DNA from: Balanoglossus misakiensis
Taxonomy: Eukaryota; Animalia; Hemichordata
Length of the DNA stretch: 64,000 nt
Direction of reading: 5' to 3'
Assembly: GCA_040954595.2 (NCBI GenBank)
Contig: CM082590.2
Location: forward strand, 3,224,001 to 3,288,000
Shown: positions 1-49,806 of the stretch, piece by piece
How positions within the stretch are numbered: the first letter of the stretch is position 1
How the letters are laid out: every line of letters starts with the position of its first letter
The notes under the pieces: model-generated
Database searches by the model: none
What the model was told of the DNA's origin: nothing
Seen by the model: only the letters and a program-made list of their open reading frames with translations
Made by a program: the position numbers and the translations under genes

Positions 1-1154
1 AAATTTCCATGGTTGCTTCCAAACAGCCTCGTTTATTTACCGATTTCTGTTGTGAGGCGCAGAACACATGATAGGCCTATGCGCATGAGACATTTTTCCA
101 CTAGACTCTGTAGATCGACGGATAGTTGTAAAATTTCATGGTTGCTTCCAAATACAGCCTCGTTTATTTAGCGATTTCTGTTGTGATGCGCATAACACAT
201 AGATAGGCCTATGCGCATAGGAACGTTTTCCACTAGACTTTGTAGATCGACGGATAGTTGTACAATGTCCATGGTTGCTTCCAAACAGCCTCGTTTATTT
301 ACCGAATTCTGTTGTGAGGCGCAGAACACGTAATAGGTCTATGCGCATAAGGAAGTTTTCCACCAGACTCTGTAGATCGACGGATAGTTGTAAAATTTCA
401 TGGTTGCTTCCAAATACAGCCTCGTTTATTTACCGATTTCTGTTGTGATGCGCATAACACATAGATAGGCCTATGCGCATAAGAACGTTTTCCACTAGAC
501 TCTGTAGATCGACGGATAGTTGTACAATTTCCATGGTTGCTTCCAAACAGCCTCGTTTATTTACCGATTTCTGTTGTGAGGCACAGAACACATGATAGGC
601 CTATGCGCATAAGACATTTTTCCACTAGACTCTGTAGATCGACGGATAGTTCTAAAATTTCCATGGTTGCTTCCAAACAGCCTCGTTTATTTACCGAATT
701 CTGTTGTGAGGCGCAGAGCACGTAATAGGCCTATGCGCATAAGAAAGTTTTCCACCAGACTCTGTAGATCGACGGATAGTTGTAAAATTTCCATGGTTGC
801 TTCCAAACAGCCTCGTTTATTTACCGATTTCTGTTGTGATGCGCAGAACACATAGATAGGCATATGTGCATAATAAAGTTTTCCACTAGACTCTGTAGAT
901 CGAGAGATAGTTCTAAAATTTCCATGGTTGCTTCCAAACACAGCCTCGTTTGTTTACAAAATTCTGTTGTGATGCGCAGAACACATATATAGGCCTATGC
1001 GCATAATAACGTTTTCCACTAGACTCTGTAGATCGACGGATAGTTGTAAAATTTCTATGGTTTCTTCCAAACAGCCTCGTTTATTTACCGAATTCTGTTG
1101 TGAGGCGCAGAACACATAGATAGGCATATGTGCATAAGAAAGTTTTCCACTATA
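1..1154. repeat. ~131-bp satellite DNA, left segment of the array
   Basis: Tandem monomers AAATTTCCATGGTTGCTTCCAAACAGCCTCG...TAGGCCTATGCGCATA...GACTCTGTAGATCGACGGATAG. This segment is nearly identical to 22539-23692 (offset 22538). Confidence 0.97.
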
Positions 1155-1188
1155 AACAGCACGAAAACAATTTCCCAATAACCGAAAA
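1155..1188 (+). repeat. Left terminal inverted repeat of the 21-kb transposon
   Basis: AACAGCACGAAAACAATTTCCCAATAACCGAAAA is the reverse complement of 22076-22109 with 2 mismatches. Confidence 0.93.
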
Positions 1189-1719
1189 CCAAAAATTTCA
1201 GGAAATTTCATTGAAATAAAGTTAAAATAGCAGTTAAATTATGAAGATGTATAGTTTTTACTTAGTAATCTTTTCTTTAGTTGCCTTTGCATATTCCATC
1301 GCCGATATTTTAAAGGAAAAATCTACTTTCATGTATTTATAAAGAAAACGAGTATGGTGAAAAAAAACACATTGATCATTGGTGCATAGACTGTCTATGA
1401 TTGGTGGGAACATTTTCACAAATTATTATTGAAAAACTTATTACTAACTTGTAGAAAATAAAAAATAAAAAAATTCATAGAAATAGTGATATCTATAGTC
1501 CACCATAGAAAAATTAACAATGAAAAAATCACGATGTGACATTCGAGGTTTTCAAACCAATAATTTTGTGTTTATTCTTACACATAAGGAGTTTTATACA
1601 GATAAGCCCATTATTCTTGCATAAAAAGCACTGATAAAAATTACAAAGTTGATTTACAGATATTTTCACAAAAAAATTATGTTTATGCTCATTAAAATTA
1701 AGATCTCATACAAGTTAAG

Positions 1720-2598
1720 AAAGTTCTTGCAAGGGACACACCCACCGATGTCAACACCCAACGATGTCAGAAATTTCTTGCAAGGGTCACACCCACAGAT
1801 GTCAGAAATTTCTTGCAAGGGACACACCCACCGATGTCAACACCCAACGATGTCAGAAATTTCTTGCAAGGGTCACACCCACCGATGTCAGAAATTTCTT
1901 GCAAGGGACACACCCACCGATGTCAGAAATTTCTTGCAAGGGACACACCCACCGATGTCAGAAATTTCTTGCAAGGGACACACCCACCGATGTCAGAAAT
2001 TTCTTGCAAGGGTCACACCCACCGATGTCAGAAATTTCTTGCAAGGGACACGCCCACCGATGTCAGAAATTTCTTGCAAGGGTCACGCCCACCGATGTCA
2101 ACACCTAACGATGTCAGAAATTTCTTGCAAGGGTCACACCCACCGATGTCAGAAATTTCTTGCAAGGGTCACGCCCACCGATGTCAGAAATTTCTTGCAA
2201 GGGTCACGCCCACCGATGTCAACACCCAACGATGTCAGAAATTTCTTGCAAGGGTCACACCCACCGATGTCAGAAATTTCTTGCAAGGGACACACCCACT
2301 GATGTCAACACCCAACGATGTCAGAAATTTCTTGCAAGGGTCACACCCACCGATGTCAGAAATTTCTTGCAAGGGACACACCCACCGATGTCAGAAATTT
2401 CTTGCAAGGGTCACACCCACAGATGTCAGAAATTTCTTGCAAGGGACACGCCCACCGATGTCAGAAATTTCTTGCAAGGGTCACGCCCACAGATGTCAGA
2501 AATTTCTTGCAAGGGACACACCCACCGATGTCAGAAATTTCTTGCAAGGGACACACCCACAGATGTCAGAAATTTCTTGCAAGGGACACACCCACAGA
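1720..2598 (+). repeat. Left subterminal 35-bp minisatellite (~23 units plus 16-bp partial units)
   Basis: Unit GATGTCAGAAATTTCTTGCAAGGG(A/T)CAC(A/G)CCCACC, with interspersed GATGTCAACACCCAAC short units. It explains the repetitive ORFs in all three + frames. Confidence 0.95.
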
Positions 2599-2826
2599 CA
2601 AAAATTGCAAAAATTATAAAAATGCACATTTTGCAACAATTTGAACAAAACCATGGTAACTCAGACCAACTTAAGAAATCAGCTTTTCACTTTCAGAAAT
2701 CAAGATTTGTTCAAAATATGTGGAAAAAGACAGAGAAAATGCATAAAAACAGAAAATTCATAATATTAGCTCAAACATACAGGACTGTATTAGGTGTACT
2801 GTATGAGCATCTTATGAAAACCCTTA

Positions 2827-5800
2827 TCAATCAAACTCCAGATCTTCTGCATCTGTTAGTCCAAGAAGAGATTGACATCTCACTTTGCAGTGAGAGATAC
2901 ATCTTTCATTGGTGTCTATTCCCACCACGTTGACATCATTTGTCAGCCCAGCAATTACAGCAGTGCCTGAAAAAATGCAATATATTTGTAAATGTTAATA
3001 CAGTCATTGCAAAAAATTGGGTCTTTGCATCACAGTATATATAATACAAAACAATGTCTCTACCTGTCACCTCTTTTCCATCAGTTGATATAATTTTACG
3101 TATATTACTGGAAAGAATACCAGCAGTACTATGGGTTCATTGACAGAAAAATAGTGTGCTAGCCTTATGGGATGACTGCATGTAAACTTTCAAAACAGAG
3201 AGAGACAATAATGATTATTGGCCTAACAGCCCTTCCACTCCACTCATGTTACGCAAAACGAGCACCAAAGGTAAACTTGCACAACCAGTCAAAATTTTTA
3301 CATCTGCAGGTTACTTTATTTTTCAAAAATGACTATGAGTGTTTTCCCCAGCAATCCCTGATAAATTATTGACTTATTTGCATAACGATGCAATTCATTG
3401 TTGTGTAAAATAAACATTGTTTTTTATGTTTTCCACAAATGAAAGGGGGTATTGGCCAACACTCATTAATATGAGAGAACACTGTGATGTCCATTCATCA
3501 GTAACCCCGTTTTGACTACAGTTGGCTAGATTGTGAGTGATGTAAATGTTCTGTATCTCACCTGCACCACATATACCATCCAGCATCCATGATCCTGGCG
3601 ATGCAAAGTCTTTAATGAGATACTCAAACAGGTTAAGCGGCTTTTGCCTTGAGCAAATTACAGCACCCTCCCCATCCTTCTCCAGAACATCCTGCTTCAC
3701 ACTCCAAAAATTATGCCTGCCAGCACAGGAGACTTGATCTTCTGTTATCTGTGCAGAAGTTGATGCATACGCAACAACCAATCCCTTGACGGAACGTGTC
3801 AAGGTCACCTTTGTCTCTGAAAGAAATATGAAAGACAAAATCAAATAATATTGCTGCTTATAATATTTTAATATGGACTTAATATAGTTAAATGGTAGGT
3901 GCAAGTGATAAGAGTGGTCTGATGTCAAAGGTCATAATTTTATATAAATATACCAGCTAGGTACTAAATATGTATACAAACCTCTTTTTGTGTTTTCCAC
4001 ATAGTAGAATCCATCTTCAACTCTCTTGAAACAGTGTGTGGCTTTCAGTTCTTGCTTGATTTTCACCAGGCTGTCAACTTCACAAAGCAGAATGACCCTG
4101 TAACTGCTGGTATTCGTATTTAGATTTTTCATGACAACTACAAATTCCCTAATATCATCCATTGACCAGTCCTGAAACACAATGTAAAATATTTGTAAAA
4201 AATGTTACTGCCAATCTCAGAAGGTGTAATTGGGTGAGATTATGGAATTAAATGACACCCTGTAATAAATCATTGCCCTGAAATCATTGCACTGGAAGGA
4301 ATTTATATAGCTATACGCCCCGTAGATGACTCTGATCACACTGTCTTTTTTAAACTCTATATCAAATGATAAAACAATACTATAGTTCGCAACCCCTTTG
4401 TTTGTAATCACCCCCTATAAATAATGGTGCAGTCCTACAAGGAGTGTAATATGAGACTCAACATGATCTCACCAATTACTTCAGATTTATGAGATTTACC
4501 AGTGAATATCCCAATATGTCTGCACGGAAAAACGTAGCTAATGTCTTCATTCTCACTTAACACTTAATTTTAAATCTGAGAAATGTTTGGTCTAAAAAAT
4601 ATGCTTTTTCCAATGCCTTAGCAATATTATAACCTTGCAATAAAAAATGAAATAACTCACACTGGGAACATCAACAACAGCCAGGTCGAAGCCATCACAG
4701 TTCACCCCATTTTCCTTGAGAATAGTCTGGTTCAACTTCAGTACATCTGCCTGAAAGATTATTCCTCGGTTCCCTCCATTACCAGGGTAAACGTCTGCTG
4801 GTCTGGCATTAAGGCCCTCAGCTTTCTCCCTCTGTACTCTTCGACAATACTGCACAAAGGTCTCTGGTATGGTCAGTCCATTGAATTTTAGGTTTGTAAA
4901 TCTTAGAAGTCGTTCCCGTGTTGTTTCATGAGGATATGTCTTTACTGCCTCTTCCCAATCGCACACTCCTGTCTCGTGAATGAACGCACGTTGAACACGT
5001 CTGAGTTTCGAAAGGACAGCGCTTTCCTGAGTGAACTGTTCAAGGGATAAATTGTGGTCTATAGCATCTTGAAGAAGGGACTGGATTGTCTTGACATCCA
5101 AAACTTTGAAATGCTTGAACTTGTAAGGTTTGAAGTCCGGTCTTGAAATCCTGTCTGATGATTTCAGCTTCTGGTCTTTGAGACCTCCATCTTCAAACAT
5201 CTCCAGGAACTGCCTGATTAATGAATATGTTGGATCATCATACGAAGCCAACATGCATGCTATGTCAACTGTCTGGTTGACTTTTTCCTACAGAAGACAA
5301 AAATATGACATGCCAATTATTTTGCAAAGCCAGCAAACTGGACTTTTCGGGGAAGCATTAATATTAATCAACCAGTTACTGTGAAAATAATTTCATGTAA
5401 CTTAACTATGGTGTATTACAATAATGTAAGTCTGAAGTGCAGTGAGAAATATAGAAGACAGGCAAGTACTAAAAATTACTATTATTTGGAACTTAACAGT
5501 GTCTCACAAACTTTGATTTATTTATGCATGTAATGTTGTATTTTATTTAAATATCAAACAGGGGGAGATGAAAAAAATATGTTGGGAAAATAAGTTCTGC
5601 CATATCTTAATACCGACATTCTTTAAAAGACACCACATTGAATTTCCACATTGACGAAAACAACTTACCTCATTGAGAATAATTCTACATGAATTCTTAA
5701 ACTCACTGGGCTGTATATCCTCCGGCATTTCACTCCGACTTGCTCGGCAGATTGCAACCTACCAAACAAACAAACCACTTGGTTTAGCATCTGTGAGAAA

Positions 5801-8800
5801 CCCTGAATACATTGGTTTATGGGCCCTGAATGCAGAATGTCATTTGCCCTATGCTGGAGGGCAAATGGCTTTTATTTAACAAGTTAATAGCCTTTACTTG
5901 ATGCATATTTCATATTAACAAAAAGAATCTTATTTCACATTTATAGCAAACAGATGAAGCTGTTTCTGTGATTGTTCCCTTTTAAGATGATTTTGCAATT
6001 TGCACTGATTTACACAACCTATTTATATGGTTACAAATACATGTATACTAATTAGTTCTCATTGAATGACCTGATAGAATATTAAAATACTAATATGGTC
6101 AACACCAGCTACATTCAAAAGTTTATTGGAATGAAATTACCTTGTCTCTGAATGTCATTGCATGACGGAATTCACCAGTTTTGTTGTGGCGAACACCTAA
6201 CCACTTCTTATCTTCATCTTGAAGTCCCACATACACTACACAGTTTAAAGTCTTGAATCGGTGATCACTTTGATGACGCTTTGCAAGTTCTCTTGTGGCA
6301 AGTAGGGTGTGTTGGCCACCAATGACATCATAGGCATAACCATTGACCTGAAAAGAAATACACTGCACTATTCAGTATTGGCAACACCAATGTGCAATCC
6401 CGCGCAGAACCAGACACCATTTTTAATAGTTTATGGACTGAAGCAGGGCTTGGGTAGAGACTATCTGATGCCAGGAACACACAGACATGTACACAGAAGT
6501 AATTGTTACTCTACTCTACTCCAATTCAAATCTGAAACATTCTGCTGTTAATTGTTGATAGGAACCCGGCTTTTGAAAGAAACCTTTCATCTTTTGCTGT
6601 ATTTATTGTGTACAGCATTAAACGTGAGAAAAATATAATGTAAAGTTGTGAACGACAGGTGACAGCCCATACAACACACCAAAACAAGGAAAACTTGGGT
6701 GAGCTGGAGGGTTGTCAACATCAAGAACATGTGCAGCAGAATTCAGCAAACTTAACTATCAGCCACGGTGAGAACACATGAATCAACGAAAAACATGACA
6801 TTAGATAAGTAAAATATTATTACACCATTCCAAAATGATAACTGGTCTCTCATGTGATATTTGATAACAGCCATACTCAGTATCTGTCTTTGCTACATAA
6901 GACGGGAATGTGACAATTTAAATATGCTTGCCTTTGTTCCATCAAACTGGGAGGTGTCTAGTAAATCCCTCACAGACAAACACAATGGCTGGTATGCTTC
7001 ATCTCTGTAATCCTCCATAGACTTGATTAGCTGCTTAAGAAATTGATCATCACTTTCACGGATTTGCTGGTCCCCTCCTTCTAATGCTCTTACACTTATG
7101 GTAAAATGTCCTGAAAGTGAACAGCAGTGTAAATAATTACATACATAACTCTCTCTCTCTCTAGAAATGTCAATATTTGATGCATATATTTCAAATATCA
7201 TCTGTCATAAGAATTACATAAGGTTATCAACTTGTTTGCTTTGCTATTCAAAATTGTTGAGATCCATGAAATTGTGAAAATTGACAGTAGTGACACAAAG
7301 AAATGTTTAATGGACATGAACTGCCAACAGGATTCACAGAAACAGTCCTTGGACCGTCTCCCATATATCCATGTAAGAACTAACAACCTTACCACAAAAT
7401 GCCTGATGTACACGGGTCTGAACATCACTTTTAAGTTCCTCTACATACTGCCTTTTCAACGTAACAGCACTAACTGAATCAGTCGCTTGGGTCAATTTCC
7501 GCTTCTTAGGACGTACCCTATAGGGAAGAAAAATGAGGATTTTTTTTAAATTGATTTTTTCACTGATTTCATGGTTGTGTTCATAACATTGAAAGCAGAA
7601 CCATTTGTAAATGAATTTTAAATGACACAAAATGACAATATCTACTTTTTTACGCACCCACATAAAAACAAGAGAAGACATAATAAATTTAGTACAAAAG
7701 CTATCAAAGTAATGGAGATTCTAAAGGAAATGAACCTCAGTACAATATAGAACAGGCTTGGGAAACAGTCATTACATGGTTCAAACACAGCCTTCAAAGC
7801 AAAAATAGTGATTCCCAGAAATTATAAAATTTGCAAAGTAAGGTCACTATAAGGTATAGAAATGTCAATATTGATGGATATATTACAAATTAAATCAGCC
7901 ATGCACTTCCTATTTGTCGTTAAACATACAAAGTTGATCCTGTGTTTATGTCCTCTCACAGTGGCACAATGCATAAAAAAAAACTTACATTCTACCCGAA
8001 GCTGGACGGCCACTACTGGGGCGTGCATGTGGGCTGTCAAGTGAACTAGTAGATCTGCCACTACAGTTTGGAGAACTTGTGTTGAAAATGATTTCACCAT
8101 CATGATCTTCTTGATCCTCCTCGTCATCGGTACCCCCTATAGACATTGGACTATCATTAAATTGAGCTCGCCAGTCAGTAAAGACAGCTACCATTTCTCC
8201 TGGGGTGCTTGCCTCCTTGAACTTTCTGCTGAACGTGGACCGATTCCATTCAAAGTATTTCCTCTCCAACACAAAAACAAAATTCTGTCCAGATGACTGC
8301 AGAAATTCAAACTGTAATGTAAAAGTATTTTAGAAGAAATTAAAACGGTAATAATGCACGCGGTTATCAACATCACACCGGCTGCACGTAGCTCGACGGT
8401 TTATGCGCTTGTGAAGTTGTAGCAGATGACAACTGTTTACATAGACGCAGGCTGAAGTGTCGACTCGCGGCACGGTGCCAATTTGGACCGATGATAACAG
8501 GAGCGATCATCCGCACTTCAGACCATCCAACCCACAGCACAGGCCGCACCATGGTTGAGAGCGCTAGCTCTCAACTACGGTGCGACATGTAGGTCGTACG
8601 GGAAGCGTTAAAATTAGATTCACCGTGAAACACTTGTCGTCACTACATAGGCAGAATTGCTTGTACGTTTGTCTAAAAAAATAAACAGCGGTTATTTGAC
8701 AACGCGATCATAATGTATATGTTGTTGTTTGGTCAGTGCGGGCACTGCATGTGCATAGACTTAGCCGTGCGTACAGGTCTGTATGTTCCCGGCGTTACAC

Positions 8801-9126
8801 CATGTAACACCGGGAACATACATACCTGTACGCACGGCTAGCATAGACTGTACATCATGTACTGCAATGTTATGGCAGCAATTTCACGAATTAATCATCA
8901 TACACAGCGCACAAGGTGCTCCTTGGTTTAAAACTGCTGACAGTGACAGCGACCAAAGTCTTACCTTTAACGCGTCCGGCTTGTCTTTAAAAACAGACAT
9001 CGAAATAACCTCTTCAAACTCCACCCCAGTCTTCTTGTTTCGCATCCTAAATTTCTTGCCATTTTCGATAGAATACAAGTACGCTGCGTTGCTGGACTCT
9101 TCCAACCACCACTTCTTTCGCCCCAT
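2827..9126 (-). CDS. ParB/Srx-like domain fused to a beta-class N6A/N4C DNA methyltransferase-like domain; 10 exons, ~760 aa
   Basis: Phase-consistent exons 9126-8965, 8296-7989, 7517-7393, 7110-6932 (GC donor), 6347-6141, 5758-5669, 5287-4661, 4171-3982, 3816-3562, 2966-2827, with no internal stops. ParB-like motif: IRESDDQFLKQLIKSM...QPLCL...YDVIGGQHTLLA. MTase motifs: FDLAVVDVPS (motif IV position), then QKPLNLFEYLIKDFASPGSWMLDGICGAGTAVIAG...VVGIDTN (motifs X-I-II). Confidence 0.8.
8762..8840. mobile_element. 79-bp hairpin MITE with 9-bp TSD in intron 1 of the ParB-MTase gene
   Basis: Near-perfect palindrome TAGCCGTGCGTACAGG...CCTGTACGCACGGCTA (38-bp arms, 2 mismatches). Flanked by GCATAGACT at 8753-8761 and 8841-8849. 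Confidence 0.8.
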
Positions 9127-9179
9127 GTCGAATATGCAGACTGTGGCACACTAACTTGTGTTCGCAGTAAACATGGTAT

Positions 9180-12100
9180 ATATACACTTGGGAAACCCAT
9201 GATTCGACGAAACCCTAAAGTTGGTGTCAGACACGCTTGATTCGGTGGGCCGTTGACGGCCGTCTTGTCGCGTGGTGTTGGTCAAGCTACACCTGGCGAG
9301 TTTCCTGCATTTTTCTCGTCAACAATGCACATGCACGATGTCCCACCAGAAAAGTGCGAATCGTCCTGCTAATCGCCCTGCTGTTGAACTTCCTGTCATG
9401 TCACTGGTTAAAGTTCATGACGTTCGACCAACGCACGCGCGCACACAACAAAAGTTGATTTTAAGACAAAACTTTTGCTCCCAAACAGAGAAAAACATTA
9501 TTAACATTTAATTGCCGTACAAGAGAAACATATTCTGACTAACAGTAGCCTAGACTTGCTCCAAGTCTATGGGCTTCATTATGTGTAGGGAACGCGACGC
9601 TACCCGAAACCACAAGCTCAGTCGCAAATTCGAAACTCACCTCACTATTAAAAACACGCTCAAGGCAAGCATTCACGCAAAAAGTATTGCATTTATTTAT
9701 TAAGACAAAAAAAACACCGAAAATATTGAGTATTGATATTTAAAAATTACCAAGCGACTAGTGGGCTAGTCTAACAGTAGCCCTACGTACAGGTCTGTGC
9801 GTTCGCGGCGTTTCCAGGCCGTGTAACGCCACGAACACACAGGCTTACCCCTGCATGTACGTACGTAGGGCTAACTTCACAGAAGCTGTAATGTGATGGG
9901 CACGTCATTTATTAACGGAGCAGTTTTATTTCAAAAGAATACACGTCCCATTTTCGATACACAGATAAAGAATTATTCTGTAACTAACTCAGATTTACAA
10001 AATGGGGGGATTTAAATAGCCGAGGCTATTGACAGGCGCCTGTCACGGCACTCCAATTCAAAAACCATACAAACTCGTGTTCGGTGTATAGGCCTATCTA
10101 CACTTGGAAAACCTTTGACTCACAAGTTGGTGTACTCATACAAGCTTGTTTAGGGGATATTTGACTGCTGTCTTGTCGCGTAGTTTGGTCAAGCTACACC
10201 TGGCGAGTTTCCTGCATTTTTCTCGTCAACAATGCACATGCACGATGTCCCACCAGAAAAGTGCGAATCGTCCTGCTAATCGCCCTGCTGTTGAACTTCC
10301 TGTCATGTCACTGGTTAAAGTTCATGACGTTCGACCAACGCACGCGCGCACACAACAAAAGTTGATTTTAAGACAAAACTTTTGCTCCCAAACAGAGAAA
10401 AACATTATTAACATTTAATTGCCGTACAAGAGAAACATATTCTGACTAACAGTAGCCTAGACTTGCTCCAAGTCTATGGGCTTCATTATGTGTAGGGAAC
10501 GCGACGCTACCCGAAACCACAAGCTCAGTCGCAAATTCGAAACTCACCTCACTATTAAAAACACGCTCAAGGCAAGCATTCACGCAAAAAGTATTGCATT
10601 TATTTATTAAGACAAAAAAACCACCGAAAATATTGAGTATTGATATTTAAAAATTACCAAGCGACTAGTGGGCTAGTCTAACAGTAGCCCTACGTACAGG
10701 TCTGTGCGTTCGCGGCGTTTCCAGGCCGTGTAACGCCACGAACACACAGGCTTACCCCTGCATGTACGTACGTAGGGCTAACTTCACAGAAGCTGTAATG
10801 TGATGGGCACGTCATTTATTAACGGAGCAGTTTTATTTCAAAAGAATACACGTCCCATTTTCGATACACAGATAAAGAATTATTCTGTAACTAACTCAGA
10901 TTTACAAAATGGGGGGATTTAAATAGCCGAGGCTATTGACAGGCGCCTGTCACGGCACTCCAATTCAAAAACCATACAAACTCGTGTTCGGTGTATAGGC
11001 CTATCTACACTTGGAAAACCTTTGACTCACAAGTTGGTGTACTCATACAAGCTTGTTTGGGGATATTTGACTGCTGTCTTGTCGCGTAGTTTGGTCAAGC
11101 TACACCTGGCGAGTTTCCTGCATTTTTCTCGTCAACAATGCACATGCACGATGTCCCACCAGAAAAGTGCGAATCGTCCTGCTAATCGCCCTGCTGTTGA
11201 ACTTCCTGTCATGTCACTGGTTAAAGTTCATGACGTTCGACCAACGCACGCGCGCACACAACAAAAGTTGATTTTAAGACAAAACTTTTGCTCCCAAACA
11301 GAGAAAAACATTATTAACATTTAATTGCCGTACAAGAGAAACATATTCTGACTAACAGTAGCCTAGACTTGCTCCAAGTCTATGGGCTTCATTATGTGTA
11401 GGGAACGCGACGCTACCCGAAACCACAAGCTCAGTCGCAAATTCGAAACTCACCTCACTATTAAAAACACGCTCAAGGCAAGCATTCACGCAAAAAGTAT
11501 TGCATTTATTTATTAAGACAAAAAAAACACCGAAAATATTGAGTATTGATATTTAAAAATTACCAAGCGACTAGTGGGCTAGTCTAACAGTAGCCCTACG
11601 TACAGGTCTGTGCGTTCGCGGCGTTTCCAGGCCGTGTAACGCCACGAACACACAGGCTTACCCCTGCATGTACGTACGTAGGGCTAACTTCACAGAAGCT
11701 GTAATGTGATGGGCACGTCATTTATTAACGGAGCAGTTTTATTTCAAAAGAATACACGTCCCATTTTCGATACACAGATAAAGAATTATTCTGTAACTAA
11801 CTCAGATTTACAAAATGGGGGGATTTAAATAGCCGAGGCTATTGACAGGCGCCTGTCACGGCACTCCAATTCAAAAACCATACAAACTCGTGTTCGGTGT
11901 ATAGGCCTATCTACACTTGGAAAACCTTTGACTCACAAGTTGGTGTACTCATACAAGCTTGTTTGGGGATATTTGACTGCTGTCTTGTCGCGTAGTTTGG
12001 TCAAGCTACACCTGGCGAGTTTCCTGCATTTTTCTCGTCAACAATGCACATGCACGATGTCCCACCAGAAAAGTGCGAATCGTCCTGCTAATCGCCCTGC

Positions 12101-14270
12101 TGTTGAACTTCCTGTCATGTCACTGGTTAAAGTTCATGACGTTCGACCAACGCACGCACGCACACAACAAAAGTTGATTTTAAGACAAAACTTTTGCTCC
12201 CAAACAGAGAAAAACATTATTAACATTTAATTGCCGTACAAGAGAAACATATTCTGACTAACAGTAGCCTAGACTTGCTCCAAGTCTATGGGCTTCATTA
12301 TGTGTAGGGAACGCGACGCTACCCGAAACCACAAGCTCAGTCGCAAATTCGAAACTCACCTCACTATTAAAAACACGCTCAAGGCAAGCATTCACGCAAA
12401 AAGTATTGCATTTATTTATTAAGACAAAAAAACACCGAAAATATTGAGTATTGATATTTAAAAATTACCAAGCGACTAGTGGGCTAGTCTAACAGTAGCC
12501 CTACGTACAGGTCTGTGCGTTCGCGGCGTTTCCAGGCCGTGTAACGCCACGAACACACAGGCTTACCCCTGCATGTACGTACGTAGGGCTAACTTCACAG
12601 AAGCTGTAATGTGATGGGCACGTCATTTATTAACGGAGCAGTTTTATTTCAAAAGAATACACGTCCCATTTTCGATACACAGATAAAGAATTATTCTGTA
12701 ACTAACTCAGATTTACAAAATGGGGGGATTTAAATAGCCGAGGCTATTGACAGGCGCCTGTCACGGCACTCCAATTCAAAAACCATACAAACTCGTGTTC
12801 GGTGTATAGGCCTATCTACACTTGGAAAACCTTTGACTCACAAGTTGGTGTACTCATACAAGCTTGTTTGGGGATATTTGACTGCTGTCTTGTCGCGTAG
12901 TTTGGTCAAGCTACACCTGGCGAGTTTCCTGCATTTTTCTCGTCAACAATGCACATGCACGATGTCCCACCAGAAAAGTGCGAATCGTCCTGCTAATCGC
13001 CCTGCTGTTGAACTTCCTGTCATGTCACTGGTTAAAGTTCATGACGTTCGACCAACGCACGCGCGCACACAACAAAAGTTGATTTTAAGACAAAACTTTT
13101 GCTCCCAAACAGAGAAAAACATTATTAACATTTAATTGCCGTACAAGAGAAACATATTCTGACTAACAGTAGCCTAGACTTGCTCCAAGTCTATGGGCTT
13201 CATTATGTGTAGGGAACGCGACGCTACCCGAAACCACAAGCTCAGTCGCAAATTCGAAACTCACCTCACTATTAAAAACACGCTCAAGGCAAGCATTCAC
13301 GCAAAAAGTATTGCATTTATTTATTAAGACAAAAAAAAACACCGAAAATATTGAGTATTGATATTTAAAAATCACCAAGCGACTAGTGGGCTAGTCTAAC
13401 AGTAGCCCTACGTACAGGTCTGTGCGTTCGCGGCGTTTCCAGGCCGTGTAACGCCACGAACACACAGGCTTACCCCTGCATGTACGTACGTAGGGCTAAC
13501 TTCACAGAAGCTGTAATGTGATGGGCACGTCATTTATTAACGGAGCAGTTTTATTTCAAAAGAATACACGTCCCATTTTCGATACACAGATAAAGAATTA
13601 TTCTGTAACTAACTCAGATTTACAAAATGGGGGGATTTAAATAGCCGAGGCTATTGACAGGCGCCTGTCACGGCACTCCAATTCAAAAACCATACAAACT
13701 CGTGTTCGGTGTATAGGCCTATCTACACTTGGAAAACCTTTGACTCACAAGTTGGTGTACTCATACAAGCTTGTTTGGGGATATTTGACGGCCGTCTTGT
13801 CGCGTAGTTTGGTCAAGCTACACCTGGCGAGTTTCCTGCATTTTTCTCGTCAACAATGCACATGCACGATGTCCCACCAGAAAAGTGCGAATCGTCCTGC
13901 TAATCGCCCTGCTGTTGAACTTCCTGTCATCTCACTGGTTAAAATTCATGACGTTCGACCAACGCACGCTCGCACACAACAAAAGTTGATTTTAAGACAA
14001 AACTTTTGCTCCCAAACAGAGAAAAACATTATTAACATTTAATTGCAGTACAAGAGAAACATATTTTGACTTCACAGAAGCTGTAATCCGGGGCTGTAAT
14101 ATGATGAGCACGTCACTTTTAAACAGGGGTAGTCGCACGCAGTGTGTGAGTTTAAACAGTTTCTCCCACCTGTCCTAAGTTCAGTTTGATGTCAAAAGAA
14201 TACACGCGGTACGTTCAATTTTCGATACACAGATAAAGACTGGTTTTGTAACTAACTTAGATTTACGTAA
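9180..14270. repeat. ~906-bp tandem repeat (about 5.5 units) between the two divergent genes
   Basis: Equivalent positions at 11022, 11928, 12833 and 13740 give periods of 906, 905 and 907. Internal units are near-identical; the first and last partial units are diverged. Confidence 0.96.
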
Positions 14271-14684
14271 ATAGATCTCTTAATGTACGCATATTACATG
14301 AAATACACTTCAATCGTAGTTATTATAGTGTTCATTTAATTGAAAAATAGGTATTACTTTAATAGTGACATTTCATTGACCTCTTGACGCTCTTTCGTTC
14401 GAAGGACAAGCGAAACAAATTGGTATAGATTTCCACTTTATTGGGACAAAAGTGATTACATGTACTTTGGTTCGATGGCTTTTGACTTTCGCGGACTGCG
14501 TAACGGCTTGCTCGGCAGCTGCAATTCCAGTGGCGGGGGTCGGTCCCGGACTACAACTGACCCAAGGGACTGACATCCGCTACTGTAGTTACTGGTAGCG
14601 ACAGACCCCCTCGCAAACCGCGACAGACATTCGCGCCGCGCGCTGGTCACGTGAATCACGTAGGCCTAATTAACGACGCGACAC

Positions 14685-17600
14685 ATGACCGGACCTGCAG
14701 ACGCGGCTGACCAGCCCGAACGTGACACCTCAAATACTCATGGTCGCTCTGGAGTCTATTATGACATGGCAAGCCTAGAAATATTGTTTGATTCGTCCGC
14801 TTCATCGGAAGAAATACTGTTTGATTCGTCCTCGTCCTCAGAAGATTTTTATGATAATGCAACGAACCCGAACGAAGAGATTGTAATATATGACATCTCA
14901 TGCACCGATGATGATTCTGACTCAATGTGCTATAGTTCACAAACTGCCGCCATCGACTCGGTTGAATGTGCATACCCACTAACTAAACGTGTAACGTCCA
15001 CACCTAAGAAGAGACGCATCAGTGAGCCGGTAAGGGACCCGTTTGATGTATTACGTCAACCCTGCTGTGAAGATTGGTGCCTTAGAAACCTGACTATAAA
15101 CGAAATGCTTGAGTGTGATCGACATATGAAAAACCTAGAGAACGAGTCCAGACAGAAACAGTTCATATTAAGATGCTTTCGAGAGAATTCTTACAAGAGG
15201 TTCATAAAATCAAAACCTGTGGCGGAAACAAATATGAGAATAGCCGGAAGAGCAGTGTGTCGACAGGCTTGGCAACTGGCATACAACGTGTCTGATTATC
15301 GTTTTGCAGAATGTGAAAAGTTATTTCTGCAAGACATTGTGACTGTTCGTCACGGCAATTCCGGCAAAAGTCACATGACGGACAAAACTACAGAAGCGAT
15401 TGCCTGGATGCGTTTCTATTTCGAAAGAATGGGCGACTACATGCCCAATGATGCAAACAGGGTGATCCTTCCCTGTTCGTGGACCAAACTCATGGTTTAC
15501 CAACGAATGAAAGACGAGTTCAGTTCACGAGGGGCCGGTCCCAGAGACATGATCTGTTACGATTATTTCTGCAGAGTATGGAAGATTCACCTTCGGGAAT
15601 TCGTCATCGGAAAGGTAAGACTTTACAGTGACACTGTGCCAAATTCTTCCCTGTATTTAAATCTGTATGATCGCACCGATGTGTTTACACAAGATTTCCC
15701 ACTGATCACCCTCCGCCACTCCTAGAAACAATGGTATCATCCAAGCGTGACGTAAAATACTGACTAGTACGCCATTTTGTCCTTTGTTTTGTCGGAGATT
15801 TGTGGTGAATGTACCGCTTGTCTGTGTTCCTGTCATGCCGGTGGCATACAAAATGTTTCCGTTGTCCCCAATGTCCGTCTCTTTGCACCGTATAGTTTCA
15901 ATGATTAACGCATGCAACTGACGAGTATTACCACATCAATAATAGTTTTGCTTCTTTGCCGAAGGTAAGACATGAAGGGGTCCGAATATCTGAGCTCTGC
16001 GTGGCAGGGCTGTGTTGTTACAGTGTGGGTGGAGGCTCGCCGTAACAACACAGCCCTGCCACACAGAGCTACGAATATCTCTGCGTACAGATCTGTGTGT
16101 TCCCGGCGTTAAGTACGGTGGAGGCCGTGTAACGTCGGGACCGCACAGACCTGTACGCAGAGCTAGGGTCCGAAGTGACTATGGCCGGTAGCAGGCTCGA
16201 GGCTCTTCCGGGCGCATTGCTAAGGTTTACACGACTTTGGAGGCTACGACGGGTGACTGACGAAGTGTATGTATCTGATCACTAATCATGTTTTTTTTTT
16301 TTATAGGGCAGCGAGTTTGTGTGCTGTGAAACATGTGTTCGGCTGGATGAACAATTTGCAAAAGCAAGAGCTGAGTTTGAAAGAAGTCGAGTCAAAGGTC
16401 TAGTTGCACTTCACTTGAAACAAGTAGAGTAAGTAAACAAGAAATTTATTAAACTGTCAACAATAACAATGCAGTTTACACATATCAACATTTAATGTTT
16501 CAACTTGCTTTTAGGAGAAGAACAAAAATTTGCATTTGCCGCATAAATCAAAATGGTGACAGATCACCACAAATGGCTGATATCGTGCTTTGATTTGTAA
16601 AGTACTTCACCTTGAATTGCAGTTTTGTTAGTACCCATGATAATCTTTTTTTAAAAACCCATAGTCACATTTTTGCACCACACCCACATAAGCACAGTCA
16701 ATACATGAGTGTGTGTGTGTGTGTGTGTGACCTCATTTGTTTTGCAGAAATAGATGTGAAATTGATAACTTGTAAAGAAGTATGTCCACATCTCAATAAA
16801 TTAGTAATCGATTCTCAAATTTTTTTTTTCTTTTAAAGGAATGAACGCAAGCGTTATCACTACCACCGTGAAAAAGCAGAAAGGGAACCAGATGAAATTA
16901 TGGCTATCATTCAAGATGGCATGGATCAAAGCAAAACAGATATACCCCACCTGATCAAAGAAGACAAGGCAACATCAAATTTGTGGAGATTGCGGACACA
17001 TGTTACAGGTACTAGTGAGAGATACTTTGCTTCATTGCTCTTTTTGCATTTAAACTATCGGTACACTTCCATCTAGTCATTTGTTAAGAACAAATTTGTT
17101 CATCATCAGTCCCATCAACATAATATCACATTTTAACTAAAGTGTTTTATAAATATTCTTTAATGTTTAGCTTCCATTTTGTGTATGTGTGTTGAAGTTA
17201 TGTGAATTTTAATCTGAAGGAAGTTCTGCCAATATTTCACAAACCACACATTTTACCACCACTATACTATAATATAATTTTCTTTTAACAGGCAATATAC
17301 TGCATACTGGAGTGTCATCTGGGAAAATACCATATGTTTATATAGACATGAACCAGTTTCCACACGACAGCAACTTGACCATGAATATCCTACTAGAAGT
17401 ATTGGTAGAATCCAAAGATCATCTAGCCAAAACATTGTATTTGCAACTTGACAATTGTTTCCGGGAGAACAAGAACCGATTCTTGTTGAGTCTCATGGCC
17501 TTGCTGATACAACTGGATACATTTGAAGAAGTAAGTGCTTCATTGTTTAACCTATGGTAAATTCTAGGCACATTAATTATAAAATCCAAAATGAATACCA

Positions 17601-20086
17601 TTCATGAAGAACAATTCTTCATTGTTAGTTTGTAAAAAATGAGGTTGGCATATGCTCAAAGCAGTGATTTCATAGTTTAACAATATACGTATTATTGTAA
17701 TCATTACAGATTTATGTGAATTTTCTGCCTGTGGGACATACGCATGAAAATGTTGATCAGATGTTTTCGAAGATCTCAGTGGGATTAAAAAGATCAAATG
17801 CCTACACAGTTGAAGGTAAGTTGATAAGAACAATAGAGAACAGAGACAATTTCAATTGATGTCAGATCCAAGAAACTGAACAGGAACACAAATAGTGTGC
17901 ATAATATTCAACAGAAAATGTGCTGCCGGGAAAAAATAGATCAGCTGAAAAGTAAATAACTTTAGCAGTTTTTCAGTAATTGAAACATTGGTAAGCATAT
18001 TCTGATTAACGGTCTACATTCTTAGACTGATAACCAGCCAGCCGGCCGGCCAGATAAAAGTGTATGCACTATGTTTCATTTTACAACATCATGTTAAATA
18101 CTCATTTGCTGATTATACCTATTTTCTCAGATTTAATCTCAATCATTGAAAGCAGCTACACACCAGCCATCAACGTAGCAATATCAACAAAACTGCTGAA
18201 TATCAAGGAATGGCTTATTCCTCACATGCACAAAAATTTTAAAGGCCATTCCCGTCCGCACAACTTCCGCTTTAGGAAAGTGGATGATAAAGCCTATATG
18301 CAGTACAGAGAATGGTGTACAGATCCATGGCAGCCGATGCCAAAGGATGGTGTTGAGATTCCTGGTCTTCTGTGTTTGATGGTAAGTAGTAATTACTTTT
18401 GATGACATGTTCACACTATAAGAATTAAGGGTGTACAAGTGGTAAAACAAATTATTGTCCCTTTTTCAAATTGTTAATTTTTGGATTCTCCTTTGTAATT
18501 ATCTAAATGTGTAGTAAAATGTTTGGGTATCTGTGCTCATTTTTGAGATACAAGGCCATGAACTTTTCCATCATGAGGGAAAATGCTGACACGGCATTTT
18601 AAATTCTGAGAACAAAATAATTTAATGCAGTTTATCTCAAAATTAAGCTTGGCGACAATATAGTTTTATTTCATCACACACGGGTTACCTTCGTACAATA
18701 GAAAATTAGAGGATTGTGATATTTCTGGGATTATGATTTATCTACTGAATTGTGTAATTCATATCTGTACCCATGTTGTGTCTGCATTTCTTCTCTGTAT
18801 ATTTTCATGAAACAAATAATCAACCAACTAATGCATTTATATACTTTGATTCATTTAGACTATCCCAAACATTGATAAACCACCTGAATGGGTTGTACCA
18901 AGCCTAATGAAACTAGACGTGGATGGCTTATTAAAGAGCATTCCAGCTGGTTTCGCCCACAGAATGACCAGTCAAGCTGTCCAAACCTGGAAAACCTTCA
19001 TGGAAAAAATAACAGACTTGGAGAAGGTTGGTCTACATATAATTCCATTCATATCCTTTTTTCAATGTGTTTTGACTACACTTACATGAAGCAAGGGAGA
19101 CAAGGAATGTACTGGGCGTTTTAGCGTACCAGAAGTAGTAAAACCAAAATTTGCTTTTGATTCATAGATTCGCAAGAGCATATGGTGTGGGCTAATGAGC
19201 ATAAGCGCCTTTGAGTATGACACTTGTTGTAGATATTGGCGCTATACAAATTTCTCTGATTGATTGATTGAATAGAAAATAACCCAACCCAACCCAACCA
19301 AACTGTTAAAATTACATTCAACTCCATCCTTGCCAACATTCCCTTTTATAATTGAAGTTATAACATGTATTAAAATATGTCTTTCAGGTTCCTAACAGTG
19401 TACCCACGCGATGGCAGATCCATATACTAAAAGAAGCAGCACTTAGAAAACAACATGCACGAAATGAAAATACTACAGATATGCCAGAGGAACTGAGGCA
19501 TATCCAAGAGAAACTAACAGCTCCATGTCCTCCAGTAAGTGTTTTATTGGTCTGTAACAGAATAAGTATAATTTAAATACAGTTACAAAATGTGCTATTG
19601 TATTGTGCAGAATGGGTTGTGCAAAGTTTCTACTCCATACTGATTCACTCAGTATTGCAGTATTATTTGTAACATCTGCAATGACCTTCTGTCTTCTATC
19701 TTTTTGATGAATAGGTGACAATTGGTAATCAAAACAAAGACCAGGAAGCCCCAGCAGTGCAAGAAATGAACAGTTTTGATACTGTTGACCAGGGAATGCT
19801 GATTGCAGTCTGGGCACCAGACAATGATGCCAGGCCACAAATAGCACAGGTTATAGAGAGAAATGACAGTGAGCTCAACATCCACTGGTTAGTTGGCAAG
19901 TACAATGGTATGTGGAAGGAGGCATATCATGGCTTTGCAACCAACAGAAGGCCATGGGTGGACACCATTCCTGTTGAGTCGTGTATTCTTTGGGATTTCA
20001 CCCTTACAAAGAAAGGATGCCTGAAAAAAGCAACAGCTGATGAACTGAAGAAAAAGTACTCAGAACTTGATGAAGCTGCTGGGTGA
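14685..20086 (+). CDS. Sola-like (Sola1-related, DUF7869-type) DDD transposase; 9 exons, ~834 aa (807 aa from ATG 14766)
   Basis: Phase-consistent exons 14685-15614, 16307-16428, 16839-17008, 17292-17530, 17710-17815, 18131-18381, 18859-19026, 19388-19534, 19715-20086. Motifs: HGN, DYMP...LP, FVCCETC, IIQDGMDQSKT, LYLQLDNCFRENKN, FLPVGHTHENVDQMFS. NLS-like TPKKRR. Lies between the TIRs. Confidence 0.85.
15987..16165. mobile_element. Two nested hairpin MITEs with 9-bp TSDs in transposase intron 1
   Basis: The outer element is flanked by GGGTCCGAA (15978-15986 and 16166-16174). The inner hairpin 15992-16071 is flanked by CGAATATCT (15983-15991 and 16072-16080). The outer element resembles the 8762-8840 hairpin. 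Confidence 0.75.
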
Positions 20087-21273
20087 GTGTTTTTAGTGTA
20101 ACCAGTGATTTTATGTTTTTCACATTAGTTGAAAACACCTGGTTTTAAATCACTGATAAAGTGTGCAACAAATAATTTGTGAATAACCGAATAGATAAAA
20201 TTGTATTTTGAACATTATTTCACTCAACGACTGTAGTACTTGTGTGTATATTTTCACTCAGAACTGTAATTTGACTGTAATTTTTTAAGCATTACAAATC
20301 TGTACAGTTAATTTTCGCAACAAGCTTTCAGTGTATTTCGAATGGCACTTCAGACAGATTTCTCTCTGCGAAATTTCCCGTATTTTGTATACGGATGCCA
20401 TGTGTTACATGGTCACTACATTTTTTAAGAACAGGTGTAATGGTAACCAAATTTAAATTGTGTAATAATTTGTACATATAAGTTGGGGACAATTTCTGTT
20501 TATTGTTAAGAAATTCTCTAAAAAGGCTGAATGAGTTGCCTGTCTGATAGTTCTCAAAGTTGGTATAAATAATCTTGAGGATGTCTTTATTTCAATTTCA
20601 AAGCATTATATTGTCATATTTGGTATGGGTTTATAGTGTAATGCAATTGAAAAAAAATAGCCATGATTTCATTGACTAAGAACAAATTCACAAGTGCAAA
20701 ATATATTTCATTTACCTTATACAGAATTTTTCAGGAGTGGCCTAAAGATGAGTTTTATCCTTCATTTTCAATGAGGAAAATCTTAAAAGATTTTCATGTA
20801 TATTTTTCACTTACTGATCTTATGTGTGTATTTAAAGGCATACCTCAGTCACCTCCAATATATATGTATATGCCCATATATGTCAGAAATGGCATATTTA
20901 ACCGTTATAAAGAACAGATGGTGGCTAGATCTCAATTTGCCATGGTATCTATAGTTTATTTTTCATAGGTGACCGTATATCTTTTAAGTTTTCAAGGTTC
21001 AGATAAAGTATTTCAACCCATCTTGAAAATGTGAATGACACATAGTGTGTTATTGACATTTATTTACACACTGTTTGCATTTGAATAAATGCCATAAAAA
21101 CATTACATGTTTGTGTCAGTTCTGTTTATTACCTTATTATCAAAAATCTGATAGAAGACTGTACTTTATAAACATCCTTAGCAGTTTGTGAACATAGAGT
21201 GAACCTATAACAAGGAAAACTGATATGCCTTGATTTTTTTTCAGATGGGACATGTCTAAAATATTTCCTGCAA

Positions 21274-21766
21274 TGCAAGGGACGTACCCACCCATGCACA
21301 CGCCCACCCATGCAAGAAATTTCTTGCAAGGGACACGCCCACCCATGCAAGAAATTTCTTGCAAGGGACACACCCACCCATGCAAGAAATTTCTTGCAAG
21401 GGACAAGCCCGCCCATGCAAGAAATTTCTTGCAAGGGACACGCCCACCCATGCAAGAAATTTCTTGCAAGGGACACACTCACCCATACAAGAAATTTCTT
21501 GCAAGGGACACGCCCACCCATGCAAGAAATTTCTTGCAAGGGACACGCCCACCCATGCAAGAAATTTCTTGCAAGGGACACACCCACCCATGCGAGAAAT
21601 TTCTTGCAAGGGACACGCCCACCCATGCAAGAAATTTCTTGCAAGGGACACGCCCACCCATGCACACGCCCACCCATGCAAGAAATTTCTTGCAAGGGAC
21701 ACACCCACCCATGCAAGAAATTTCTTGCAAGGGACACGCCCACCCATGCAAGAAATTTCTTGCAAC
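21274..21766 (+). repeat. Right subterminal 35-bp minisatellite (~13 units)
   Basis: Unit CATGCAAGAAATTTCTTGCAAGGGACAC(A/G)CCCACC contains the perfect 18-bp palindrome TGCAAGAAATTTCTTGCA. It is homologous to the left array and in the same orientation. Confidence 0.95.
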
Positions 21767-22075
21767 TGACAAGCCGACACATGTTGGAACTCAACATATT
21801 TCGAAAAAGAATTTAGTAACGACCAATTAATGAAATTTCACTTGTAAAGTAATAAAATGACTTTTGCTTCTTCATTTTCACATAGTTACCATGGAAAATT
21901 ATATGACTTAATATGTTATATTTTAAATTTAGTTATTTCCATAAGAATATCTTTAACTTTCCAGTATGTTCAACCACTTTTGACTAAATCAGAAATTCAC
22001 AGTGAAATTATCAAGTACAACATAACTGAATTTAATAACCTGATATTTCTGTAGAAATTTTTGAAAAAAGTGTGT

Positions 22076-22109
22076 TTTTCGGTAATTGGAAAATTGTTTT
22101 CGTGCTGTT
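22076..22109 (-). repeat. Right terminal inverted repeat of the 21-kb transposon
   Basis: TTTTCGGTAATTGGAAAATTGTTTTCGTGCTGTT, followed by TATA and resumption of the satellite. Confidence 0.93.
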
Positions 22110-49400: not shown

Positions 49401-49774
49401 AATCGGTCCTGGATCTTCCAGACACAGCAACTATAGAGAGGTTTGACTGTAGGCTCTTCCTTTTTTTTTACATATTATGAACCTAACTTTTGTTATCTTT
49501 CTGTCACCAGGATTTCAATGTGCTTGTGGTCAATGAGGCTGTGTTGGCCTTGGCTAGGACCTACAGGCGAGAAATCTTTGCTACTGATGATGATGATGAC
49601 AATAACACAGATAACCGACATGCTGCCTATAGGCAGTATGTCATGTGGCAGTATGGTCGTTTAGGTGCAGGAAACCGTGTGGTCATTCCAAGTTGCTGTG
49701 TCTGGGAGATCCGGGACCGATTTCCTGACCCATTCGCCCGCTACACTGGATTTGTTCCTTCAAGATTACAATAG
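46471..49774 (+). CDS. KolX/Nanor-like protein: RG-rich N-terminus plus P2X7 C-terminal ballast-like Cys-rich domain; 4 exons, ~280 aa
   Basis: Exons 46471-46482 (MECE micro-exon), 47392-47715, 47823-48065, 49511-49774. Motifs WCICSHCQQMPTEMEKMCC...CIS and RHAAYRQYVMWQYGRLGAGNRVVIPSCCVWEIRDRFPDP...YTGF. Confidence 0.85.
48842..49184. mobile_element. 343-bp palindromic Kolobok MITE nested in intron 3 of the KolX-like gene
   Basis: AGGGACAAAGTCTCTCTCTC...GAGAGAGACTTCGTCCCT with TTAA at 48838-48841 and 49185-49188. Both halves resemble the host element's right end (~62680-62848). Confidence 0.88.
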
Positions 49775-49806
49775 TTTTTTTTGTCTACATGTATTTACAT
49801 ATGGAA

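What the first reader, a model, noticed from the sequence alone, without database searches (positions are those of the whole stretch)
2827..4760. MTase domain keeps the SAM-binding motifs but has a non-canonical catalytic motif (DVPS instead of D/SPPY)
The order is motif IV first, then QKP..L...LI...S..G..LDGICGAGT...VVGID, which matches beta-class amino-MTases. At the catalytic position the spliced product reads FDLAVVDVPS|DW, lacking the first Pro and the aromatic residue, with an intron directly after it. Inference: the protein is either a pseudo-enzyme acting as a SAM- or DNA-binding module, or has changed specificity (the nearby Trp might substitute for Tyr).
Basis: partly seen in the sequence, partly recalled or inferred. 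Interest (0 to 1): 0.72.

Follow-up and report, generated by a model that had tools for sequence, protein, structure and literature searches.

The report
Acorn-worm transposon's disarmed DNA methylase
An intact 21-kb jumping gene, likely from an acorn worm, carries a passenger gene whose bacterial-type DNA-methylase domain lacks the ring-shaped residue that normally grips the target base; every named animal relative checked lacks it too while plant-type relatives keep it, so the animal protein is likely a non-methylating DNA-binding helper.

Summary
Observation confirmed. The minus strand holds an intact 10-exon, 765-aa gene: ParB-like domain, helical region, beta-class amino-methyltransferase fold. 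Motif IV reads DVPS|DW across a phase-0 intron (4661/4171). No alternative junction restores a canonical motif, and a Ptychodera RefSeq model (85% identical) reads DVPNDW. The change is clade-wide. Of 86 motif-IV rows from relatives, only 5 have an aromatic fourth residue (DFPY, DLPY, DAPY, DALY), and these lie in one clade with Chara and Riccia proteins. The missing first Pro matters little, because plant-type and phage enzymes also lack it. What matters is the lost Tyr, together with a 12-residue loop. The Trp is probably structural: it aligns to an aromatic already present in Tyr-bearing relatives and persists where the SAM site is eroded. SAM-pocket residues stay conserved in the window's group. 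The gene sits head-to-head with an intact DUF7869 transposase in a 20,955-bp TIR element with palindromic subterminal arrays. This design closely matches the published Ectocarpus Sola1-1_Ec32. Verdict: likely a SAM-binding pseudo-methylase accessory protein, an animal variant of a known algal transposon cargo. Activity is untested.

The parts
1155..22109 (.). Whole DNA transposon, 20,955 bp, termini AACAG...CTGTT, TATA on both sides, inserted in a 131-133-bp satellite
   Evidence: terminal 40 bp 35/40 identical in inverted orientation; 11 satellite units in the window carry the TATA empty site, 10 of them with the same flanks
1155..1194 (+). Left terminal inverted repeat
22070..22109 (-). Right terminal inverted repeat
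1718..2595 (.). Left subterminal 35-bp tandem array, 22 copies of a 15-bp core with an imperfect palindrome; lies just 3' of the ParB-methylase gene; candidate binding sites (inferred)
21298..21783 (.). Right subterminal 35-bp array, 13 cores, 11 perfect 18-bp palindromes; the core occurs nowhere else in 2621-21249 or 22112-64000
2827..9126 (-). ParB-like + helical + pseudo-methyltransferase gene, 765 aa; exons 9126-8965, 8311-7989, 7517-7393, 7110-6932, 6347-6141, 5758-5669, 5287-4661, 4171-3982, 3816-3562, 2966-2827
   Evidence: 85% identical to XP_070534462.1
6141..7110 (-). ParB-like domain (about aa 204-335), motif IGGQH at 6323-6309
2827..4756 (-). Beta-class amino-methyltransferase fold (about aa 540-765): the finding
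   Evidence: (homologs)
4661..4672 (-). Motif IV position, D568-V-P-S571, aromatic residue absent
4172..4660 (-). Phase-0 intron directly after motif IV, position shared with relatives
   Evidence: 30 of 54 short relatives read Val, i.e. GTN, at the next codon
4166..4168 (-). Trp573, conserved but probably structural
3638..3646 (-). QKP (motif X region, SAM pocket)
3562..3583 (-). Motif I LDGICGAG, completed across the last intron at 2966
14766..20086 (+). Transposase gene, 9 exons, 807 aa, open, DUF7869 domain, acidic motifs DGMDQ / QLDNC / GHTHENVDQ
   Evidence: (E 6.4e-26)
9278..14081 (.). 906-bp unit, 5 full copies plus a partial one, 97-100% identical, between the two divergent genes; each full copy has a 16-bp palindrome

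Best explanation
The stretch is the last domain of an intact ParB-fused accessory protein of a 21-kb DNA transposon; it has a bacterial-type amino-methyltransferase fold but lacks the base-stacking aromatic residue, so it is likely a pseudo-enzyme that likely still binds SAM but does not methylate DNA bases. Shown: gene structure, motif, element anatomy, and clade-wide loss of the Tyr with a 12-residue loop and the WxKP strand motif. Predicted from a homolog: the fold. Inferred: a phage-type ParB-methylase fusion became transposon cargo, plant-type copies kept D-x-P-Y, and the animal lineage lost the Tyr once. The protein would work as a DNA-binding factor: the ParB-like part binds the palindromic arrays near both element ends, while the dead methylase domain serves as a dimerising, SAM-filled scaffold. 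It would thereby help pair the ends or shield the element from host silencing.
For: Aromatic at motif-IV position 4 in only 5 of 86 rows. Those 5 form one side of a 100/100 branch with the Chara and Riccia proteins; the split holds at 98/94 without any methylase columns and at 95 with phage enzymes included. Position 4 varies freely elsewhere: K 16, E 15, D 8 and ten other residues among 68 distinct contexts. The 12-residue loop and the WxKP motif are missing in the animal-type rows. PMC7544214 (passages) states that the fourth, bulky residue stacks on the target base and calls METTL14's EPPL eroded. In PMC8885841 (passages) SPPY to APPA abolished activity, though two residues were changed. 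The whole methylase signature has decayed in several named animal members (P0017, P0030, P0026, P0029, P0174) while the domain is kept. SAM pocket kept in the window's group: 19 of 207 columns invariant in 5 sequences, and 13 of these also in a Chara DLPY copy, including D568, P570, Q692, K693, D714, G718, G720. The ParB part is the best conserved: 93% against 83% for the methylase versus P0001, and 35 of 129 invariant columns. Fold: model of P0005, pLDDT 88.6, pTM 0.84; Z 22.9, rmsd 3.3, 215 aligned to CcrM; ParB hit E 4.9e-6. Palindromic arrays are confined to the element ends.
Against: No assay. D568 and P570 are invariant in the SAM-intact group from hemichordates to sea cucumber, which also fits retained catalysis. 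Seven distinct fragments read [DN]PP followed by K or E, so three of four catalytic residues were often kept. W573 is invariant in that group and the loop deletion could move it into the pocket; side chains were not inspected. Only the top 150 of 985 hits were seen, from a hemichordate-built profile, and most are unnamed fragments whose animal origin is inferred. The window's ParB motif lacks the Arg after His (3 of 61 rows have it), so clamp-like CTP chemistry is doubtful (ParB motif recalled). Binding to the arrays, dimerisation and any role in transposition are untested. Only one copy of the element was seen.
Confidence: 0.68

Rival explanations
1. The domain is still an active methyltransferase with a rebuilt site: D-x-P positions the substrate amine, and W573, brought close by the loop deletion, or another residue does the stacking. 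The substrate may have changed (RNA, another base, or a protein side chain).
For: D568, P570, W573 and the SAM-pocket residues are invariant in 5 of 5 complete deuterostome-group sequences; W at position 6 in 19 of 27 continuing rows; ORF intact.
Against: W aligns to F/Y already present in Tyr-bearing relatives and survives in SIPEDW, HYNEEW and DMPSEW members with eroded SAM motifs. Position 4 is unconstrained. D and P also line the SAM pocket in such enzymes (recalled), so SAM binding alone can explain them.
Confidence: 0.16
2. The methylase domain is a decaying relic held only by its fusion to the useful ParB and helical part; SAM binding no longer matters.
For: It is the least conserved folded domain against P0001 (83% against 88-93%). 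The SAM motifs have eroded in several lineages. The P0001 model ends out of frame inside motif I.
Against: 13 columns, mostly SAM-pocket residues, are invariant from the window's group to Chara; confident fold in the homolog model.
Confidence: 0.09
3. It is a METTL14-like silent partner that dimerises with an active beta-class methylase encoded elsewhere.
For: Beta-class enzymes work as homo- or heterodimers with division of labour (PMC7544214 passages).
Against: The element encodes no second methylase (tblastn finds only this gene in the window). No named animal relative with the Tyr was found.
Confidence: 0.04
4. The odd motif is a gene-model artefact, and real splicing restores a canonical motif.
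For: No RNA reads of this locus were available; the intron falls exactly at the motif.
Against: 0 of 21 and 0 of 1,700 open variants restore it. Independent RefSeq models read DVPNDW, DVPDEW, DTPQDW and DTPQNW. Uninterrupted 661- and 690-aa ORFs on 2.6-3.0-kb contigs read DMPQDW and DMPKEW.
Confidence: 0.03

Closest known systems
ParB-like + N4C/N6A methyltransferase accessory gene of Sola1-1_Ec32, Ectocarpus (PMC12477816; passages and supplementary table rows seen)
   Same: Giant DNA transposon of like size (21,549 against 20,955 bp), 4-bp target duplication ending in A, similar termini (AACCG-CGGTT against AACAG-CTGTT), ParB + methylase gene on the strand opposite to the transposase.
   Different: Brown alga against (likely) hemichordate; 1,104 against 765 aa; 282-bp against about 40-bp inverted repeats. 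The paper predicts an active methylase, whereas this one lacks the catalytic aromatic. Its sequence was not seen, so homology and its motif are untested.
Plavaka accessory genes PAG2 (PF01555 + SET) and PAG3 (ParB + 2OG oxygenase) of Bostrychia (bioRxiv 2025.02.11.637652; section 8 and passages read)
   Same: Transposon-borne ParB and PF01555 domains; tandem arrays of inverted repeats beside the ParB gene, proposed as its binding sites.
   Different: ParB and methylase are on separate genes there; different transposase; red algae.
Beta-class amino-methyltransferases CcrM, M1.HpyAVI, M.MboIIA, M.RsrI, and phage ParB_N + N6_N4_Mtase fusions
   Same: Fold and motif order; ParB + methylase architecture among the top viral and Atlas structure matches.
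   Different: Canonical enzymes have (D/N/S)-P-P-(Y/F/W); 5 of 5 fetched phage enzymes keep the aromatic. This protein has a long helical insert, introns and no aromatic.
METTL14 / MTA9 pseudo-methyltransferases (PMC7544214 passages)
   Same: Beta-class fold with eroded motif IV.
   Different: Different family (MT-A70); they partner an active subunit, and none is seen here; this protein keeps SAM motifs and is transposon cargo.
Bdelloid N4CMT (PMC8885841) and Marchantia DN4MT1 (bioRxiv 2021.02.12.428880); passages seen
   Same: Eukaryotic PF01555 beta-class proteins of bacterial origin.
   Different: Both have SPPY and are active host genes; no ParB mention in the Marchantia paper; 12-13% identity of N4CMT to the model.

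Membership tests
Beta-class amino-methyltransferase (PF01555), fold | [quoted passage not shown] | tested here: met
   Homolog model Z 22.9 to CcrM, rmsd 3.3, 215 aligned; family profile hits HpyAVI, CcrM, MboIIA at E 1e-9 to 9e-8; order seen in the window
Beta-class amino-methyltransferase (PF01555), fold | Pfam gathering score | tested here: inconclusive
   Single window exons stay below the cut-off (14-17.5 bits against 26.7); complete homologs pass (41.5 and 52.8 bits); the spliced window protein was not scanned
Active N6A/N4C DNA methyltransferase | Motif IV (D/N/S)-P-P-(Y/F/W) with stacking aromatic | tested here: not met
   DVPS; no splice variant restores it
Active N6A/N4C DNA methyltransferase | SAM-binding motifs (QKP, motif I D-x-x-x-G-x-G, acidic residue after next strand) | tested here: met
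   QKP, LDGICGAGT, VVGID; phage enzymes show LDNCMGSGT and LDNCAGSGT
Active N6A/N4C DNA methyltransferase | Methyl transfer to DNA | not testable with these tools
   needs an assay
ParB/Srx fold | Fold similarity to ParB N-terminal domain | tested here: met
   Foldseek to Myxococcus ParB 7o0n E 4.9e-6; PHROG ParB-like E 3e-4
ParB CTPase clamp | Arg-rich GxxR CTP-binding motif (recalled) | tested here: not met
   IGGQHT in the window; Arg after His in 3 of 61 rows
Sola1 DNA transposon | 4-bp target duplication and termini like Sola1-1_Ec32 | tested here: met
   TATA flanks with matching empty sites, AACAG/CTGTT termini; a 2-bp TA duplication with footprints is not excluded
Sola1 DNA transposon | Transposase homologous to Sola1 transposases | not tested
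   Only DUF7869 was matched; no Sola1 sequences were at hand
METTL14-type pseudo-subunit | Heterodimer with an active paralog | tested here: inconclusive
   No second methylase gene in the window; no whole genome held

The most novel reading that the evidence does not exclude
Animal giant transposons across cnidarians, nemerteans, echinoderms and hemichordates carry a phage-derived ParB-methylase whose active site was rebuilt once in the animal lineage. In the deuterostome group that keeps D-x-P, Trp and a full SAM pocket, it is a new kind of SAM-dependent enzyme or SAM sensor, loaded on parS-like arrays at the element's own ends to mark or shield it.
Probability: 0.18. Interest if true: 0.82.

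Novelty: new variant of a known kind. Interest (0 to 1): 0.55.

Why it matters
ParB-methylase accessory genes of giant transposons have been proposed, from algae, to bind and methylate their own element. This copy shows the same design intact in an animal. It also shows that the animal branch lost the catalytic aromatic once while keeping the ParB part, the palindromic arrays and often the SAM pocket. That suggests binding, not methylation, is the conserved job, and it gives a natural pair for testing: plant-type D-x-P-Y against animal D-x-P-x. It also warns against counting such PF01555 hits as sources of 6mA or 4mC in invertebrate genomes. If the domain proved active, it would be an amino-methyltransferase working without the motif-IV aromatic.

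Tried and rejected
No whole genome is held, so copy number and other copies' motifs in this genome are open. No RNA holder was listed for 2800-9200; this is no evidence either way. The first fold (P0001, 2-sequence alignment) was unusable, pLDDT 40.5; the usable model is of the Saccoglossus homolog P0005, not of the window protein. A dimer-with-SAM prediction was not obtained, so dimerisation is open. Relatives in viral contigs: 18 pattern matches, none confirmed. Metagenome contigs: 1 of 188 confirmed, ParB exons only. The mixed plant-animal alignment had no stretch conserved enough to scan prokaryotic genomes, so the nearest prokaryotic source is not identified. PDB sequence search with the 2-sequence profile and with one transposase exon gave nothing useful. 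Rejected: private mutation of this copy; splice artefact; identity with the N4CMT or DN4MT1 families; the clades in the seen passages of PMC4738411 (chlorophyte Dam with ParB-type HTH, haptophyte clade 6) did not match this architecture. Ten paper searches listed no paper on animal members. One review recalled by DOI is not held. Iyer 2011, cited by the Ectocarpus paper for similar proteins, was not read. Repbase Reports and the Bostrychia supplements were not seen and may mention such elements.

Full report
Observation. The finding is the 3' third of a minus-strand gene. Ten exons between 9126 and 2827 give an open frame of 765 aa with canonical splice sites, one of them GC-AG. Exon 7 ends FDLAVVDVPS at 4661 and exon 8 begins DW at 4171, in phase 0. 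QKP, LDGICGAGT and VVGID follow in the stated order. The protein is 85% identical (611/716) to a Ptychodera flava RefSeq model that reads DVPNDW, and 48% to a Saccoglossus model that reads DVPDEW. The window is therefore likely from an acorn worm (inference; no genome is held).

Is the junction right? I enumerated 505 single-intron and 16,585 micro-exon combinations around it. Of 21 and 1,700 open ones, none gives a canonical-like motif. The intron position is shared by relatives: of 54 short relatives that stop within 60 residues of the motif, 30 read Val, the translation of a GT donor, right after its fourth residue. Two uninterrupted ORFs of 661 and 690 aa on 2.6-3.0-kb contigs, likely spliced transcripts, read DMPQDW and DMPKEW. 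No RNA run for this locus was listed, so direct proof is missing.

Fold. Complete homologs pass the Pfam N6_N4_Mtase cut-off; single window exons do not. A family profile hits M1.HpyAVI, CcrM, M.MboIIA and M.RsrI. An AlphaFold2 model of the Saccoglossus homolog P0005 on an 82-row alignment is confident (pLDDT 88.6, pTM 0.84). P0005 is 32% identical to the window protein in this domain. Its C-terminal domain matches CcrM at Z 22.9, rmsd 3.3, 215 residues, and Myxococcus ParB appears at E 4.9e-6. The best viral matches align over the full length, and the top one is named ParB/Sulfiredoxin; Atlas structure matches include phage ParB_N + N6_N4_Mtase clusters.

The family. A profile search found 985 representatives at E up to 0.001, of which I saw the top 150. 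Named members come from Ptychodera, Saccoglossus, Holothuria, Exaiptasia, Actinia, Lineus, Chara braunii and Riccia. Several occur as multi-copy clusters (8 in Ptychodera, 4 in Lineus), which fits mobile cargo. Of 175 stored proteins, 86 rows cover motif IV; 5 have an aromatic fourth residue: DFPY, DLPY, DFPY, DAPY, DALY. In a 30-row tree these 5 lie on one side of a 100/100 branch together with the Chara and Riccia proteins, and 15 scored rows without the aromatic lie on the other. The split stays at 98/94 when all methylase columns are left out (19 rows). With 4 phage enzymes added, the 10 animal-type rows form one group at 95. All 5 phage methylases I fetched keep the aromatic, 2 as DLPY. 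So the aromatic is ancestral, the first Pro was already variable, and the animal lineage likely lost the Tyr once. Limits: most fragments are unnamed, their animal origin is inferred, the profile was hemichordate-biased, and 835 hits were unseen.

What was lost and kept. Against the plant-type rows, animal-type rows lack the Tyr, a 12-residue loop after it, and the WxKP motif. The fourth position takes 13 different residues among 68 distinct contexts, mostly K and E; these fit an exon-final AG (inference). W573 aligns with F or Y in the 4 Tyr-bearing rows, and phage enzymes also have a Trp a few residues after the motif. It persists in DMPSEW, SIPEDW and HYNEEW members whose SAM motifs are eroded, so it looks structural. 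In 5 complete deuterostome-group sequences, 19 of 207 methylase columns are invariant; 13 are shared with a Chara DLPY copy, among them D568, P570, Q692, K693, D714, G718 and G720. Across 9 animal-type rows only 1 of 153 methylase columns is invariant, while G273, G274, H276, A280 and N318 of the ParB part hold across 10 animal- and plant-type rows. Against my reading: D and P are invariant in the window's group, and 7 distinct fragments keep [DN]PP before K or E.

Context. The gene lies in a 20,955-bp element (1155-22109) with inverted termini 35/40 identical and TATA on both sides. Eleven satellite units carry the TATA empty site, 10 with the same flanks. Head-to-head lies an open 807-aa, 9-exon DUF7869 transposase gene. 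Near both ends are 35-bp arrays with 22 and 13 copies of a core found nowhere else in the scanned parts of the window; 11 right-hand copies are perfect 18-bp palindromes. Both genes are intact and the internal 906-bp repeats are nearly identical, so the insertion is likely young.

Mechanism (inferred). The fourth motif-IV residue stacks on the target base (PMC7544214, passages; PMC4738411, passages). In N4CMT, changing SPPY to APPA abolished activity (PMC8885841, passages). Without that residue and its loop, base methylation is unlikely. The conservation pattern puts the main job in the ParB-like part, which would bind the palindromic arrays. The methylase fold would act as a dimerising, SAM-filled scaffold; beta-class enzymes are dimers according to the same review. 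The likely outcome is end pairing or protection of the element. The ParB motif lacks the Arg of CTP clamps (recalled motif; 3 of 61 rows have it). I give this reading 0.68, rebuilt activity 0.16, relic 0.09, silent partner 0.04, artefact 0.03.

Known systems. The Ectocarpus element Sola1-1_Ec32 is 21,549 bp with AACCG-CGGTT termini and a 4-bp duplication biased to end in A. It carries an opposite-strand ParB + N4C/N6A methylase gene predicted to modify its own element (PMC12477816; passages and supplement rows). Bostrychia Plavaka elements carry PF01555 and ParB accessory genes, the latter beside arrays of inverted repeats (bioRxiv 2025.02.11.637652; section 8). The design is therefore known from algae. 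Sola1 membership here rests on termini, duplication and size, not on a transposase comparison. Ten paper searches listed no description of animal members or of the lost Tyr. Other papers seen in passages only: bioRxiv 2021.02.12.428880, PMC13519894, PMC4455052, PMC10294476. Earlier AI notes of this scan describe similar elements in other genomes. One pointed me to the algal papers; they are not independent support.

Verdict. A real feature, correctly read. It is an animal, likely catalytically dead variant of a recently described algal transposon accessory protein. Interest 0.55.

Noticed in passing
window 9278-14081: 906-bp unit repeated five times plus a partial copy between the two divergent genes, 97-100% identical, each full copy with a 16-bp perfect palindrome; CpG o/e 1.06 against 0.5-0.6 in the two genes. 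Possibly an amplified promoter region.
   Followed up: partly
window 1-1152 and 22112-42685: 131-133-bp satellite with higher-order variants; CpG o/e 1.14, not depleted; the TATA variant unit is the element's target, or an amplified footprint.
   Followed up: partly
window 52163-56291 (-): Gypsy-type LTR retrotransposon with overlapping gag (PNMA, zinc knuckle) and pol (RT, RNase H, integrase) frames.
   Followed up: partly
window 44588-45682 (-): LINE-type fragment with a zf-RVT domain.
   Followed up: no
window 47300-51200 and 57500-59330: Exons of a P2RX7_C-domain gene (E 3e-20 at 49487-49771) facing transposase-like exons; resembles KolobokP elements (label recalled, from no call).
   Followed up: no
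window 19715-20086 (+): Last transposase exon encodes a Trp-rich C-terminal domain of about 120 aa with no Pfam match.
   Followed up: no
P0001 (XP_070534462.1) C-terminus: The Ptychodera model leaves the frame inside motif I and stops early, yet appears to use the same last splice junction; a broken copy or an assembly error.
   Followed up: partly
P0042 (Chara braunii GBG86584.1), P0105, P0144, P0146: Plant-type members keep D-x-[PL]-Y-G-F; P0042 also keeps SAM motifs and holds two tandem copies of the whole unit. These are candidate active 6mA writers, apparently uncharacterised.
   Followed up: partly
L001 998-2425: Two ParB-region exons of a relative with similar exon layout on a short metagenome contig.
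   Followed up: partly
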